In this document: in pieces, positions 27,722 to 50,739 of the stretch
Layout: each line of letters starts with the position of its first letter
How positions within the stretch are numbered: position 1 is the stretch's first letter
IMG/VR virus record: IMGVR_UViG_3300017763_004709
Span: 11,829 to 75,828 of that record
Strand: one strand, 5' to 3'
Origin: a virus
Length of the DNA: 64,000 nucleotides
Notes under the pieces: generated by a model
What the model was told of the DNA's origin: nothing
Database searches by the model: none
The model's input: the letters and a program-made list of their open reading frames with translations, nothing else
Position numbers and translations under genes: made by a program

Positions 27722-28314
27722 TTTGTTACTTTTTTTCTTGAGAAATTTCTATATTCATCAATAATACTTATAATATAAGGATCTAAAGGTTCTATACCTT
27801 CTCTTACAAATTTTTCTATTTCGTCTTTTTGATTATTATTAAAGTTACTTTTATAAATAGAAGAACGATATACTCCTCTTGTTTTAGAAGGATTACCAAA
27901 CACTTTAGAGAAAGGTTTTACATCTTTTATTATGGGCGAAAATGTTCCTATAAAAGAATGACTACCTACTGTAGAGTAATTTTGTATATGAGCATTATAC
28001 TCTATATAAACATTATTTTGAATAACACTATGAAAACCTAAGTAACAACAACCTGTTATAGTATTATTATTGCCTATCAAAGTATCACTATTAATAGTAG
28101 TACTTGGGCCTATATAATTGCCACTTCCTATAACAGTATTCTCTCTGTAACCAGTTGCGCAGTTAATAACACATGCTGAAAGTATGGTATTGTTTTTACC
28201 TAGAGATATTCCATATTTATCATCTTTTACTAAAAACACCACTGAAGGGTCAATAGTATTAGAAGAATCTATAGAAAATTCTATAATAGCTTTGGAGGCA
28301 GAGTATACTTTCAT
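27718..28314 (-). CDS. hexapeptide-repeat (LpxA-like) acyltransferase
   Basis: IG.N hexapeptide repeats; KDV.PF..V.GNP. Confidence 0.75.
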   Translation of the reverse strand: MKVYSASKAIIEFSIDSSNTIDPSVVFLVKDDKYGISLGKNNTILSACVINCATGYRENTVIGSGNYIGPSTTINSDTLIGNNNTITGCCYLGFHSVIQNNVYIEYNAHIQNYSTVGSHSFIGTFSPIIKDVKPFSKVFGNPSKTRGVYRSSIYKSNFNNNQKDEIEKFVREGIEPLDPYIISIIDEYRNFSRKKVTK

Positions 28315-28336
28315 AGTGCTATTCAAAATAATGAGT

Positions 28337-28595
28337 GTCACTTTTTCTGTTGCTAGGCAAGTGACCAGCCCCCTTAATCATGCAGCTAGTGCGTAATTAG
28401 ATGGTGCAAAGTTATCGTTTGCGTTTGTAGTTTTTGGCTGAATATCGTAGGCCAACACGGTAATCTACTCTCATCTCTACACACCTGTCGATCCTAGTTC
28501 AGCCCCATAAGAAACACACTTATCTTAATGTGTTTATGGTGGAGCTGTCGGGTACTGCCCCCGAGTCCAGTATGTATGTTGAATTGTATCAACGA
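28337..28595 (-). ncRNA. ssrA: tmRNA, circularly permuted two-piece (alphaproteobacterial type); tag ANDNFAPSNYALAA
   Basis: Acceptor piece ...GGACTCGGGGGCAGTACCCGACAGCTCCACCA (ends 28537) precedes a 30-nt spacer and the coding piece GGGGCTGAA..GGATCGAC (starts 28506); tag ORF 28422-28378; PK1 and terminal pseudoknot pair; outer ends approximate. Confidence 0.95.
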
Positions 28596-28633
28596 TTACA
28601 AAAAAGAGGTTTAAAACGATAGATGTATCGAAG

Positions 28634-47995: not shown

Positions 47996-48011
47996 ACACT
48001 TGTTTAAGATG

Positions 48012-48145
48012 AGGGGCTGGTCAAGTGATGCCAGTAAACCATAAAAATCACTATGGGTTATGTTAAACTATCCTATCCGAAAAAAATTGTTTAACCACTA
48101 TTCTGCTAGTGTAACTAAGTCCGTTATTTCGGAAACGGCAGCAGA
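48012..48145 (+). ncRNA. candidate structured ncRNA 1 (five hairpins, three tertiary pairings)
   Basis: Intergenic; complementary loops AGTGAT/ATCACT, TCCGAAA/TTTCGGA, TCTGC/GCAGA. Confidence 0.6.
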
Positions 48146-48146
48146 T

Positions 48147-48190
48147 AAAAAGGCGTTCTAACTTATAGTAAGAGCGCCTTTTTACTTTTT
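48147..48190 (+). terminator. intrinsic terminator (A- and T-flanked)
   Basis: AAAAAGGCGTTCT/AGAGCGCCTTTTT. Confidence 0.8.
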
Positions 48191-48210
48191 TAATTATAAG
48201 GAAAATATAA

Positions 48211-48789
48211 ATGTCTACCGTACATAAGATATTAAAAAATGCGTTAAAAAACATGAACTATGTAGGCTCCGGGTGTTATGCTGCTGCTTTTGATAGTAAT
48301 AAAGAAATAGTTAAAATAGGAGCAGATATATTTGACCCTTATTTATATTATCTAAGAGAAATAAAATCATTAAAAAATACACATTTTCCTAAATTTCATA
48401 GTTTATATGTAGATAACTATAATGAGTTTTATACTGTAAAGCTAGAGAAACTATATCCTTTAAATGATAAACAACTTAAAGATTACGAACAACTATACGA
48501 CTGGGCAGTAAAAGGAGAAGATAAACCTTGTTGGGCTAGTGAAGAGCTAGAAGAAGCTGTTAATAAGATAGTAGATTTAGCAGATGTAATATCTTTACAA
48601 CCTTCAGAGGATTTAGAGTATGAAGGGCAGACAGGAGATTGTAGATTAGACCTTCATGAAGCCAATGTAATGAGTCGATCTGATGGGACATTAGTATTTA
48701 CAGATCCTCTTTCAGATGCCCAAATGTTTGATGCCCCTGCTATAGAAGAGTGGATAGATGACTATCTTTATTATACCAATAAAAAGTAG
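48211..48789 (+). CDS. protein kinase, T7 gp0.7-like
   Basis: GSGCYAAAF, VKIG...D, YTV.LE.L, DLHEANVM, TDP. Confidence 0.75.
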   Translation: MSTVHKILKNALKNMNYVGSGCYAAAFDSNKEIVKIGADIFDPYLYYLREIKSLKNTHFPKFHSLYVDNYNEFYTVKLEKLYPLNDKQLKDYEQLYDWAVKGEDKPCWASEELEEAVNKIVDLADVISLQPSEDLEYEGQTGDCRLDLHEANVMSRSDGTLVFTDPLSDAQMFDAPAIEEWIDDYLYYTNKK

Positions 48790-48832
48790 TTTTATTCTTG
48801 CTTATTACTTATTTTAATAGTATTATGATTAT

Positions 48833-48985
48833 ATGATGAAAAAACAAATAAAATTTAATATAAAATCTGTAGAAGATTTACATAAACAAATGAATGAGTG
48901 GGTAGATGCAAATCTACCTATAGAAGAGATAAATAATACTAACTTAGCGGCTACAATGCTAAAAAGTATAGGAATAAAAGTATAG
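48833..48985 (+). CDS. 50-aa hypothetical protein (absent from ORF track)
   Basis: ATG 7 nt after TTGCTT-17-TATTAT; stop overlaps first base of tRNA-Arg. Confidence 0.5.
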   Translation: MMKKQIKFNIKSVEDLHKQMNEWVDANLPIEEINNTNLAATMLKSIGIKV

Positions 48986-49061
48986 GTCTCTTAGCTCAGC
49001 TGGATAGAGCAAGTGCCTTCTAAGCACTAGGTCTCAGGTTCGAATCCTGAAGAGATCACCA
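48985..49061 (+). tRNA. tRNA-Arg(UCU)
   Basis: Cloverleaf, CTTCTAA loop, CCA encoded. Confidence 0.95.
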
Positions 49062-49242
49062 AGATAGGCAAAGGGGAAAGCCTAGCGATTTCGCTAAACG
49101 TACCCAACAAAGGTCCTAGACATGGAAGAGTGGCCCTCTAGTCTAGTCCGGTATAAGCACTGGTACCGCATAACCCAGTCGGTTGCTGCATACGTCAAAT
49201 GCAGATACGTGGGGAGGCACTGCAGAAAGCCTCCCCACCGAT
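49062..49242 (+). ncRNA. candidate structured ncRNA 2 directly after tRNA-Arg
   Basis: GC-rich island with about seven stems and an H-type pseudoknot. Confidence 0.65.
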
Positions 49243-49278
49243 TCTATAGAGTTATATCTATGTAACAAAGGATACACT

Positions 49279-49437
49279 ATGAGAAGAGGTACTAAGCCTA
49301 ACCCCATAGATTATATTAAAGTAAGAATAGATCTACTACGTGAAGAAAAGAAAAAAAACGAAGATAATACTGCTCACTTAGTATTAGATAAAGCAATTTA
49401 TGAGTTAAGTGTTGTTTTAGATCTTCTAATAAGATAG
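49279..49437 (+). CDS. 52-aa hypothetical protein
   Basis: AAGGA SD; start MRRGTK rather than track start 49183. Confidence 0.6.
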   Translation: MRRGTKPNPIDYIKVRIDLLREEKKKNEDNTAHLVLDKAIYELSVVLDLLIR

Positions 49438-49449
49438 TAGTTATACTAT

Positions 49450-49524
49450 TCCGGCGTAGCTCAGTGGTAGAGCAGTTGACTGTTAATCAATTGGTCGTAG
49501 GTTCGACCCCTACCGCCGGAGCCA
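49450..49524 (+). tRNA. tRNA-Asn(GUU)
   Basis: Cloverleaf, CTGTTAA loop, GCCA end. Confidence 0.95.
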
Positions 49525-49529
49525 AATTA

Positions 49530-49605
49530 GGGTCTGTAGCTTAGTGGTTAAAGCTGCCCGCTCATAACGGGTAGATCGTAGGTTCGAATCCTACCGGACC
49601 CACCA
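49530..49605 (+). tRNA. tRNA with CAU anticodon, probably Ile2 (lysidine type)
   Basis: G1-C72 paired so not an initiator; CCCG-CTCATAA-CGGG arm resembles Ile2. Confidence 0.88.
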
Positions 49606-49608
49606 TAT

Positions 49609-49680
49609 ATGGGTGAAGTGTTAATGGTTGCACATCGGATTCCAAATCCGAAAGACAGAGTTCGATTCTTTGCACCTATG
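49609..49680 (+). tRNA. tRNA-Trp(CCA)
   Basis: ATGGGTG/CACCTAT acceptor, TCGGA-TTCCAAA-TCCGA arm, GTTCGATTC; followed by CCCA. Confidence 0.85.
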
Positions 49681-49697
49681 CCCAAAGGAATATTAGT

Positions 49698-49922
49698 ATG
49701 TATACAGTAGAATTTGATCATGATGAAGTAATTATAACTATATTAGACGACTCAGGAAGTTTACCAGATCTAATAATAAATAGTTATGACGATGGAGTAT
49801 ACATTACTCAAATGGATGAAGATGGTGATTATGATGATATACTTAACATAACTCCAGAAATGTGGCAAGAGTTGATTTTAGCTATAAACAGCTCAGAAGG
49901 AGCTTATGTTATAAAGAGATAA
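49698..49922 (+). CDS. acidic hypothetical protein inside the tRNA island
   Basis: ORF with AAGGA SD. Confidence 0.7.
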   Translation: MYTVEFDHDEVIITILDDSGSLPDLIINSYDDGVYITQMDEDGDYDDILNITPEMWQELILAINSSEGAYVIKR

Positions 49923-50006
49923 GCCCGCGTGATGGAATGGTAGACATAACAGACTTAAAATCTGTGGCCGCAAGGCGTGCCGGTTCGAGTCCGGCCGCGG
50001 GTACCA
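49923..50006 (+). tRNA. tRNA-Leu(UAA)
   Basis: Type II cloverleaf with variable arm, CTTAAAA loop, CCA encoded. Confidence 0.95.
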
Positions 50007-50010
50007 ACCA

Positions 50011-50147
50011 GCGTGACAACTACGCACTCAAATATACTCCGGACTCTGTATTGGTTGAGAAATAGTTGTACTTGTAAGTCGTACTTTGTAGAGTATTTAC
50101 TTATTATCTGAGGGGGTTATATAAGTAAACATTCCAAAGAGCGACCA
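50011..50147 (+). ncRNA. candidate structured ncRNA 3 ending in ACCA
   Basis: Pseudoknot domain plus long rod between tRNA-Leu and the terminator. Confidence 0.55.
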
Positions 50148-50184
50148 CAGCCCTCCTAGTTTTTTATACTAGGAGGGCTGTTTT
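50147..50184 (+). terminator. intrinsic terminator closing the tRNA island
   Basis: ACAGCCCTCCTAGT/ACTAGGAGGGCTGT 14-bp stem plus T-run. Confidence 0.88.
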
Positions 50185-50250
50185 ACATCTAAACTTAATA
50201 AAATAAAATTTAACATTAGTCATAAATAATGATACTATAGAGTATATAAA

Positions 50251-50739
50251 ATGTTTACAAAACAACAAATTGAAGAATTAGTAGAATTACTAGTGACGCT
50301 GGATTCTAATACAAAAATATATCTAGGCTGCGATTCTGTAACTTACTTTAAAAATAATAGAAAAAAAGCAAAATATGCTACGGTACTTATAGTACATAAA
50401 AATAGTAAAAATGGTTGTAAATTATTCTCTAATACCTCTTATGAAGTAGATTATGATTTAAAAAAAGACAGACCTAAAATGAGAATGATTTATGAGGCTA
50501 GAAAAGTTTGTGAATTATATATACAAGTAGCGCCTTTTATAGATGAGTTTGATATAGAAATACATTTAGATATAAACACAAATCCTAAGTTCGGATCTAA
50601 TTGTGCTGCATCGGAAGCCGCTGGATATATTTTAGGTATGACAGGCATCACACCAAAATTAAAACCTTTTGGTTTTGCAGCGAGCTACGGTGCAGATAGT
50701 GTAGCCAAAGGTAGAGGAGTAGTTATTGTACCACACTAG
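50251..50739 (+). CDS. RNase H-fold YkuK/DUF458-family protein
   Basis: IYLGCDS, R...E, IEIHLDIN, S, KP...AAS..AD. Confidence 0.85.
   Translation: MFTKQQIEELVELLVTLDSNTKIYLGCDSVTYFKNNRKKAKYATVLIVHKNSKNGCKLFSNTSYEVDYDLKKDRPKMRMIYEARKVCELYIQVAPFIDEFDIEIHLDINTNPKFGSNCAASEAAGYILGMTGITPKLKPFGFAASYGADSVAKGRGVVIVPH

What the first reader, a model, noticed from the sequence alone, without database searches (positions are those of the whole stretch)
49062..49242. ncRNA candidate 2: GC-rich multi-stem RNA abutting tRNA-Arg
Seen: TAGGC/GCCTA, TAGCG/CGCTA, and CTAGAC/GTCTAG with inner AGAG/CTCT. An H-type pseudoknot forms from CGGTA/TACCG (49149-68) plus ACTGG/CCAGT (49159-79). A junction closed by TCGGT/ACCGA holds CTGCAT/ATGCAG and GGGGAGGC/GCCTCCCC. 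GC content is far above the flanks; it is not a cloverleaf and shows no SRP or RNase P core. Loops carry palindromes (ACGT, CTGCAG) that could mediate dimerisation (inference).
Basis: seen in the sequence. Interest (0 to 1): 0.75.

Follow-up and report, generated by a model that had tools for sequence, protein, structure and literature searches.

The report
Self-pairing pseudoknot RNA of marine phages
The GC-rich stretch after tRNA-Arg is a real gene for a small, tightly folded non-coding RNA of an uncatalogued family found only in uncultured marine phages; two of its loops stay self-complementary, so copies probably dock onto each other, but its job is unknown.

Summary
About 120 distinct relatives from marine viral and metagenome contigs support the fold: 35 core pairs are 96% paired, 18 show compensatory changes, and both pseudoknot stems covary. 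That part is an optional module, which also occurs joined to other RNAs.

Rfam 15 gives no hit. A model built here finds nothing in T4 rnaC/rnaD, in 636 kb of unrelated viral DNA, or beside gp32 in two cultured relatives. Only one short contig among 185,579 species genomes carries the core motif.

The family spans T4-like phages, where it follows gp32, and this distant T5-like phage. It is single-copy in the five large phage contigs checked.

The last hairpin loop always carries a palindromic hexamer (CUGCAG, CCUAGG, CUCGAG or CCGCGG), and the P1 tip always carries a GC-rich palindrome. This holds even where the pseudoknot and P4 sequences are entirely different. Such palindromes indicate symmetric pairing between two RNA copies, as argued for OLE and GOLLD. 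The ACGU loop palindrome is not conserved.

Function and expression are untested. This scan has already met the family on other DNA (e1-5410137).

The parts
48985..49061 (+). tRNA-Arg(UCU) with encoded CCA. The RNA starts at the next base.
   Evidence: ARAGORN; Rfam tRNA 68.4 bits.
49062..49242 (+). Whole structured RNA gene: 5' pseudoknot module plus core.
   Evidence: Model R1 scores 142.4 bits, E 7.7e-36, over 49098-49257. The stretch is identical or 84-93% identical in related contigs.
49064..49106 (+). Optional 5' module, an H-type pseudoknot. AGGC 49066-69 pairs with GCCU 49080-83. Inserted hairpin AGCG 49084-87 pairs with CGCU 49092-95. GGG 49074-76 pairs with CCC 49103-05.
   Evidence: Alignment A4 of 30 sequences is 100% paired. 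The pseudoknot pair is GC in 21 and AU in 9 sequences, never broken. The module is present in 41 of 109 unique members. It also occurs without this core.
49115..49147 (+). P1 hairpin. Base CCUAGAC/GUCUAG, inner AGAG/CUCU, tip loop UGGCC carrying the palindrome GGCC (49132-35).
   Evidence: Four of the 7 base pairs show compensatory change. In every P1 type seen, the tip carries a palindrome, nearly always GC-rich.
49149..49179 (+). H-type pseudoknot. Stem 1 is CGGUA/UACCG and stem 2 is ACUGG/CCAGU, with no base between stem 2 (5' strand) and stem 1 (3' strand). Loop 3 is A-rich.
   Evidence: Stem 1 pair: CG 41, UA 9. Stem 2 pairs: AU 33, GC 7, UA 5 and GC 37, AU 8, GU 5. Divergent members use GCUAG/CUAGC, CCGG/CCGG, or wholly different sequences in the same topology.
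49180..49241 (+). Three-way junction. A short closing helix (C49180-G49240, G49181-C49239) encloses P4 and P5. The joining strands GUUG and AUA are invariant in the main group, and GA follows at the 3' end.
   Evidence: Closing pairs: CG in 48 of 50; the second pair GU in 36 and GC in 14. Invariant columns are listed.
49186..49204 (+). P4 hairpin: CUGCAU, loop ACGUCAA, AUGCAG.
   Evidence: The first pair is CG 37, UA 12, AU 1; the rest is invariant. Leaving the loop free in a collection scan found no further true members. Divergent members carry other stems and loops.
49209..49238 (+). P5 hairpin, 10 pairs. The loop is A-CUGCAG-AAA, with the palindromic hexamer at 49220-25. This is the proposed symmetric kissing loop.
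   Evidence: All 10 pairs show compensatory change. All 109 unique members carry CUGCAG, CCUAGG or CUCGAG, and a divergent group carries CCGCGG. No U-run follows in the window.
49279..49437 (+). 52-aa ORF that travels with the RNA in some phages. Function unknown.
   Evidence: It is 88-100% identical in other contigs, in three different arrangements relative to the RNA. No PHROG or Pfam match.
49450..49684 (+). Co-oriented tRNA-Asn, tRNA-Met and tRNA-Trp. Together with tRNA-Arg they place the RNA inside a tRNA operon.
   Evidence: ARAGORN.

Best explanation
Window 49062-49242 (+) encodes a small structured non-coding RNA of an uncatalogued family restricted to uncultured marine phages.

Shown:
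- The RNA folds into an optional 5' pseudoknot module, a P1 hairpin, an H-type pseudoknot, and a three-way junction bearing P4 and P5.
- The fold is kept by compensatory substitutions on the + strand.
- It is one copy in each of the five large phage contigs checked.
- It sits in unrelated gene contexts, always on the strand of its neighbours.

Inferred:
- In this phage it is transcribed with the tRNA operon. It is released when tRNA-Arg is matured, since it starts at the base after the encoded CCA and has no terminator of its own.
- In about 40% of relatives P5 also serves as an intrinsic terminator.
- Copies of the RNA bind one another through two symmetric kissing loops, the P5 hexamer (CUGCAG here) and the P1 tip (GGCC here). 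This gives dimers, and with two separate self-pairing sites possibly rings or chains.
- By analogy with GOLLD and ROOL, the assembled RNA would act as a stable particle or scaffold during infection. Its partner is unknown.

My odds: real structured RNA gene 0.97; self-association through the loops 0.7; assemblies larger than a dimer 0.3.
For: - Structure: on 50 non-redundant relatives, 35 pairs are 96.3% paired and 18 show compensatory change; 0 of 500 shuffles reach this. Both pseudoknot stems covary. The 5' module is 100% paired, with a compensatory pseudoknot pair.
- Strand: many G-U pairs would be C-A mismatches on the other strand, for example 36 G-U at one pair.
- Not coding: loop 3 length varies by steps that are not multiples of three.
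- Spread: 76 viral contigs and 117 metagenome stretches, which by run and record labels are marine. Fourteen seawater or viral metagenome runs hold at least 83% of the sampled words of a 901-base stretch around the RNA.
- Restricted to phage DNA: one short contig in 185,579 species genomes. None in 50,697 deposited phage genomes by blastn.
- One copy in each of five 121-221 kb phage contigs.
- Self-pairing: all 109 unique members have a palindromic hexamer in the P5 loop, and a fourth palindrome, CCGCGG, appears in divergent members. The two central bases are adjacent and always complementary. They cannot pair within one chain, which is the argument used for OLE L9.3 and GOLLD L21a (PMC12286853).
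- CUGCAG and CCUAGG both occur within at least five P1 types, with no non-palindromic intermediates.
- P1 tips carry at least 16 different palindromes.
- Both palindromic loops persist where the pseudoknot and P4 sequences are entirely replaced.
- Hexamer duplexes are worth -7.3 to -10.7 kcal/mol. RNAcofold favours a homodimer of the window RNA by 13 kcal/mol.
Against: - No experiment or read-level data show a discrete transcript. RNA-library contigs were inconclusive.
- Self-pairing is inferred from sequence only.
- In some P1 types the tip is a perfect hairpin whose palindrome may simply be stem plus a 4-base loop. A GGCC inside a 5-base loop is a tight fit for a kissing complex.
- My idea that the two sites avoid each other's sequence fails in L312, which has CUCGAG at both.
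- The number of independent palindrome switches is uncertain, because relatives share ancestry and modules recombine.
- The invariant P4 and junction sequence of the main group suggests a specific partner that this model does not name.
Confidence: 0.55

Rival explanations
1. It is a stable non-coding RNA that works as a monomer. It binds or mimics a conserved host or phage factor through the invariant P4 hairpin and junction. The loop palindromes would then be incidental, or would serve a dimeric protein.
For: A 27-base stretch (junction, P4, AUA) is invariant at all but three positions across phages of two unrelated lineages, as expected for a specific binding surface. P4 has the size of an anticodon arm (stem plus 7-base loop, GUN at the anticodon position); this is my own reading, untested.
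Against: Four different hexamers at one loop, and more than 16 at the P1 tip, argue against recognition by one protein. Divergent members replace P4 and the pseudoknot sequence altogether, yet keep both palindromic loops.
Confidence: 0.2
2. It is a cis-acting element of the transcript: a riboswitch, attenuator or terminator, a processing signal, or an mRNA end protector. It would not be a free-standing RNA.
For: Of 109 members, 45 have a U-run after P5. In the T4-like group the RNA begins at the gp32 stop codon and ends a transcription unit. In several loci a ribosome-binding site and start codon follow within 2-25 bases.
Against: Downstream genes are unrelated (ferredoxin, endonuclease, unknowns, tRNAs) or convergent, so there is no common gene to regulate. 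The window copy has no terminator. No alternative pairing competing with P5 was found. The only competitor proposed by RNAalifold (AACC/GGUU) has no compensatory change and is broken in one member.
Confidence: 0.12
3. It is a self-cleaving ribozyme that separates the tRNA from downstream RNA.
For: It abuts a tRNA 3' end in about a third of loci. It has a pseudoknot and a junction with invariant unpaired bases.
Against: No ribozyme family of Rfam 15 matches even at E up to 10. The strand order of the helices does not fit the HDV-like fold (read from the sequence). Two thirds of members have no tRNA nearby.
Confidence: 0.06
4. It is a DNA-level element, such as an origin, a recombination or packaging site, or a protein-binding palindrome cluster.
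For: It holds several DNA palindromes. Its modules appear to be shuffled between phage lineages.
Against: The compensatory changes include many G-U pairs that fit one strand only. Interleaved pseudoknot pairing is kept. The element always lies on the strand of its neighbouring genes.
Confidence: 0.03

Closest known systems
GOLLD and ROOL RNAs (also OLE): RNA-only homo-oligomers (PMC12286853)
   Same: They are phage-encoded, often beside tRNA genes, with no known protein partner. They have symmetric kissing loops whose palindromes covary between relatives, the same kind of evidence as for the P5 loop here.
   Different: Those RNAs are about 500-800 bases; this one is 130-180. There is no sequence or model similarity (Rfam scans). 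Assembly is shown for them by cryo-EM and is only inferred here.
Phage T4 species 1 and 2 RNAs (rnaC, rnaD)
   Same: They are small stable RNAs of unknown function in a phage tRNA cluster. In T4, rnaD starts one base after tRNA-Arg, the same position as here.
   Different: Model R1 gives no match on the T4 tRNA region even with filters off. T4 rnaC ends in a tRNA-like T arm, which this RNA lacks.
HIV-1 dimerisation initiation site
   Same: A 6-base palindrome flanked by purines, in a 9-11 base hairpin loop on a GC-rich stem. This comparison is from my own knowledge and from reading the sequence.
   Different: The HIV site belongs to a viral genomic RNA and serves genome dimerisation. Here it is one of two self-pairing loops of a small phage RNA.
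phi29 packaging RNA (pRNA)
   Same: A phage RNA of similar size that forms rings by loop-loop pairing between copies (my own knowledge).
   Different: pRNA loops pair with a different loop of the neighbour and are not palindromes. pRNA is confined to phi29-like phages and binds the portal. No link to packaging genes is seen here.
The same uncatalogued family noted earlier in this scan (e1-5410137, after tRNA-Pro in a marine T4-like phage)
   Same: The same pseudoknot words (CGGUA/UACCG, ACUGG/CCAGU) and self-complementary loops.
   Different: This copy lies in a distant T5-like phage, after tRNA-Arg, and carries the 5' pseudoknot module.

Membership tests
Any Rfam 15 family | Match to a covariance model at or near its gathering score | tested here: not met
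   The gathering scan of the window hit only tRNAs and tmRNA. The scan of 48800-49500 at E up to 10 gave only chance-level hairpin matches at 16-22 bits, against cut-offs of 50-90.
tRNA or tRNA-like RNA | Cloverleaf with T arm and acceptor stem | tested here: not met
   ARAGORN and the Rfam tRNA model stop at 49058-49061 and resume at 49450.
T4 rnaC / rnaD | Sequence or structure similarity to the T4 RNAs | tested here: not met
   R1 with filters off, run on T4 69500-74500, gave no match over rnaC or rnaD.
T4 rnaC / rnaD | Lies directly 3' of tRNA-Arg in a phage tRNA cluster | tested here: met
   The window RNA starts at 49062, after tRNA-Arg, which ends at 49061. T4 rnaD starts one base after tRNA-Arg.
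GOLLD / ROOL | Match to the family model; length above about 500 bases | tested here: not met
   No Rfam match. The element is 181 bases here and about 125 without the 5' module.
GOLLD / ROOL / OLE kind (RNA-only oligomers) | Symmetric kissing loop shown by switching between palindromes | tested here: met
   The P5 loop is CUGCAG, CCUAGG, CUCGAG or CCGCGG in every member. The criterion is taken from PMC12286853.
GOLLD / ROOL / OLE kind (RNA-only oligomers) | Oligomer observed physically | not testable with these tools
   This needs a native gel, mass photometry or cryo-EM.
Intrinsic terminator | GC-rich hairpin followed by a U-run | tested here: not met
   The scan calls no terminator at 49209-49250. 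The window P5 is followed by CGAUUCUAUAG. In contrast, 45 of 109 relatives do have a U-run.
Riboswitch | Conserved aptamer upstream of a consistent class of genes, with a competing expression platform | tested here: not met
   Flanking genes are diverse or convergent. No supported alternative pairing was found.
Marine-phage self-pairing pseudoknot RNA (uncatalogued; model R1 built here) | P1 hairpin, H-type pseudoknot, junction with P4 and P5, palindromic P5 loop | tested here: met
   R1 scores 142.4 bits on 49098-49257. The helices and the hexamer are present. As a control, 636 kb of unrelated viral DNA gave no match.

The most novel reading that the evidence does not exclude
This may be the smallest natural RNA building block that assembles on its own. 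With two separate self-pairing loops on a rigid pseudoknotted body, copies would join into closed rings, cages or filaments, as GOLLD and ROOL do with four times the mass. Marine phages of two unrelated lineages would carry it as a portable cassette, to make an RNA particle that holds or sequesters some host or phage component during infection.
Probability: 0.3. Interest if true: 0.85.

Novelty: new variant of a known kind. Interest (0 to 1): 0.7.

Why it matters
RNA-only assemblies were shown only recently, and only for very large RNAs. A family of 130-180 bases carrying the same evolutionary signature of copy-to-copy pairing would be easy to synthesise, mutate and image. That could make it possible to test what such phage RNAs do.

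The family is also absent from Rfam and from cultured phages, yet widespread in seawater viromes. It is shared by T4-like and T5-like phages, and it is built of modules that recombine, so it bears on how phage tRNA islands evolve. Function remains unknown.

Tried and rejected
- RNA libraries: contigs of four marine RNA runs were laid on 48000-50400. Depth is dominated by cross-matching tRNAs. Contigs cannot show ends or strand. One cDNA contig runs from the shared 5' module into a relative's core. This was inconclusive for expression.
- A mis-specified collection pattern (wrong spacing) returned 67 unrelated loci. These served only as a negative control for model R1.
- Leaving the P4 loop free in a scan gave four extra loci, none a true member.
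- ACGU as a third kissing site is rejected. It is invariant in the main group, its duplex is worth only -1.7 kcal/mol, and divergent members lack it.
- Pairing of the 5'-module ACGU with the P4 loop is not supported. Members keep one without the other.
- The idea that the P1 and P5 palindromes are always different is contradicted by L312.
- Homology to T4 rnaC/rnaD: none.
- A cultured representative was not found. Methylophilales phage Melnitz and phage C48C1, the closest gp32 relatives, have no match beside gp32. Three blastn searches of deposited phages found nothing.
- An obligate protein partner next door was not found. The 52-aa ORF is linked in only 11 of 81 loci with enough flank.
- Palindrome avoidance in the window was uninformative.
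- Literature searches found no description of this RNA. The catalogue of 10,006 viral candidate RNAs (PMC10690425) could not be checked, because its tables are not held.

Full report
**The thing itself.** The window is an AT-rich contig (about 33% G+C) from IMG/VR, 75.8 kb long and estimated 67% complete. Its family-A DNA polymerase is closest, at 38-40% identity, to those of T5-like phages. It also has a DnaB-type helicase, an NAD-dependent ligase, ribonucleotide reductase and a two-piece tmRNA.

On the + strand lies a tRNA operon. tRNA-Arg(UCU) occupies 48985-49061, and tRNA-Asn, Met, Trp and Leu lie between 49450 and 50006. The finding fills the first 181 bases after the encoded CCA of tRNA-Arg. 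G+C there is 0.49-0.53, against 0.23-0.35 around it. On its own the sequence folds only moderately better than shuffles (z = -2.46), so the case rests on comparison.

**Relatives.** The upstream 192-aa gene led to six related contigs. In these the RNA is 100%, 93% and 84% identical, or shortened. A 17-base pattern from the P4 hairpin found 76 viral contigs, and by inspection every one carries the same RNA core. A stricter 22-base pattern found 117 metagenome stretches, which by their labels are marine. It found only one 3.6-kb contig among one genome each of 185,579 bacterial and archaeal species.

Fourteen seawater or viral metagenome runs hold at least 83% of the sampled words of a 901-base stretch around the RNA (48800-49700). 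Blastn of three family members against 50,697 deposited phage genomes found nothing. Rfam 15 has no matching family, even at E up to 10. Five phage contigs of 121-221 kb each hold exactly one copy.

**Structure.** I aligned 50 non-redundant cores (A2) and counted pairs for a structure with the pseudoknot written in.
- 35 pairs are 96.3% paired, and 18 pairs show changes on both sides.
- None of 500 shuffles reaches this. Sliding the partners by 1-3 columns gives 33-44% pairing.
- Pseudoknot stem 1 has a pair that is CG in 41 and UA in 9 sequences.
- Stem 2 has pairs at AU 33, GC 7, UA 5 and at GC 37, AU 8, GU 5.
- All ten P5 pairs covary.
- Many G-U pairs fix the strand as +.
- Loop 3 of the pseudoknot is A-rich and varies in length by steps that are not multiples of three, so the stretch is not coding.

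The closing helix of the junction is only two or three pairs. RNAalifold offered AACC/GGUU in place of stem 2. That helix has no compensatory change and one broken member.

**The 5' part.** AGGC pairs with GCCU. A small covarying hairpin follows. The GGG in the first loop then pairs with CCC at 49103-05.

On 30 sequences this structure is 100% paired, and the pseudoknot pair switches from GC (21) to AU (9) without exception. Only 41 of 109 unique members have this module. A scan for the module itself found 35 further contigs:
- 18 carry divergent cores.
- The other 17 carry no core. In the sequences inspected, the module joins either to a different, larger RNA or to nothing but a terminator right after the gp32 stop codon.

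The RNA is therefore modular. Four contigs lack the central pseudoknot but keep P1, P4 and P5.

**Context.**
- About a third of loci have a tRNA within 260 bases, usually Arg(UCU), Pro or Met just upstream.
- In a second group the RNA begins at the stop codon of a T4-type gp32 gene (PHROG 224, E 7e-114). That gene is 62% identical to the one in Methylophilales phage Melnitz. In this group the RNA faces a convergent large gene.
- Elsewhere the downstream genes are unrelated: ferredoxin, an endonuclease, or unknowns.
- A U-run follows P5 in 45 of 109 members, but not in the window.
- A 52-aa ORF (49279-49437) is found with the RNA in three different arrangements, at 88-100% identity, but only in 11 of 81 loci with enough flank.

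The RNA is thus a portable, single-copy gene shared by T4-like and T5-like marine phages. It is not the regulator of one particular gene.

**The palindromes.** In all 109 unique members the P5 loop holds CUGCAG, CCUAGG or CUCGAG, flanked by purines. Divergent members add CCGCGG. The two middle bases are neighbours yet always complementary, and such bases cannot pair within one chain. The same reasoning was used to confirm the symmetric kissing loops of OLE and GOLLD seen by cryo-EM (PMC12286853). CUGCAG and CCUAGG both occur within at least five different P1 types, and no non-palindromic form was seen.

The P1 tip carries at least 16 different palindromes. These include GGCC, GGGCCC, GCGC, GGCGCGCC, GGUACC, GGAUCC, CUGCAG and AGCGCU. 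Others are perfect hairpins with UCGA, GUAC, ACGU or UUAA at the tip. As an internal control, the small hairpin of the 5' module has mostly non-palindromic loops.

The strongest point comes from one divergent group (L299, L300, L301). There the pseudoknot keeps its topology with wholly different, mutually covarying sequences, and P4 is replaced by another hairpin. Both palindromic loops nevertheless remain. Hexamer duplexes are worth -7.3 to -10.7 kcal/mol, and RNAcofold favours a homodimer of the window RNA by 13 kcal/mol.

**Limits.**
- The ACGU in the P4 loop is invariant in the main group. It is absent from divergent members and is weak (-1.7 kcal/mol), so I do not count it as a pairing site.
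- My idea that the two sites always differ in sequence fails in one member (L312).
- Expression is not shown. Contigs from four RNA libraries were dominated by tRNA cross-matches.

**Comparison with known RNAs.** T4 places rnaD one base after tRNA-Arg, followed by rnaC. This is the same position as here, but the model built here finds nothing there. GOLLD and ROOL share the phage origin, the tRNA neighbourhood and the palindrome signature. They are four times larger and unrelated in sequence. I therefore class this as a new variant of a known kind: a compact, uncatalogued, probably self-associating phage RNA.

This scan met the same family before on other DNA, after tRNA-Pro in marine T4-like phages (e1-5410137). 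My tests were made independently and agree. They add the 5' module, the modular variants, the T5-like host phage, the gp32-linked group and the fourth palindrome.

Noticed in passing
window 48012-48200 (+): A second conserved structured RNA lies just upstream of the 192-aa gene. It has hairpins, a loop-to-downstream pairing (UCUGC/GCAGA, which becomes UCUAC/GUAGA in relatives), CCGUU/AACGG (which becomes CCAUU/AAUGG), and then a terminator. Model R1 gives it a weak 18 bits, and the order of its elements resembles the main RNA. Whether it is a distant paralogue is open.
   Followed up: partly
window 28287-28630 (-): A two-piece (permuted) tmRNA of the alphaproteobacterial type, with tag peptide ANDNFAPSNYALAA, is encoded by this phage. 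It may hint at an alphaproteobacterial host.
   Followed up: no
window 49279-49437 (+): A 52-aa ORF of unknown family is 88-100% identical in otherwise different phage contigs. It lies about 40 or 200 bases downstream of the RNA, or about 500 bases upstream, as if the two move together as a cassette.
   Followed up: partly
L282, L285, L293, L295, L302, L311 (5' module and about 250 bases after it): The same 5' pseudoknot module is joined to a different, larger conserved RNA that model R1 does not match. This is probably another uncatalogued phage RNA family.
   Followed up: no
L291 and L294: Right after the stop codon of what reads like a gp32 gene end, the 5' pseudoknot module occurs alone, followed by a terminator. 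This recalls the T4 gene 32 mRNA pseudoknot, although that one lies in the 5' leader. A link to gp32 binding is only a lead.
   Followed up: no
window 48983-48985: The stop codon of ORF 48833-48985 shares its last base with the first base of tRNA-Arg (48985). Maturation of the tRNA would therefore cut the mRNA within its stop codon.
   Followed up: no
L009, L020, L032, L046, L048, L079, L080: In the T4-like group the RNA sits between gp32 and a convergent ORF of 550-724 aa. The one tested (L009) has no PHROG match.
   Followed up: partly
whole window: CCTAGG is absent (5.2 expected from base composition), while CTGCAG occurs 26 times (5.2 expected).
   Followed up: no
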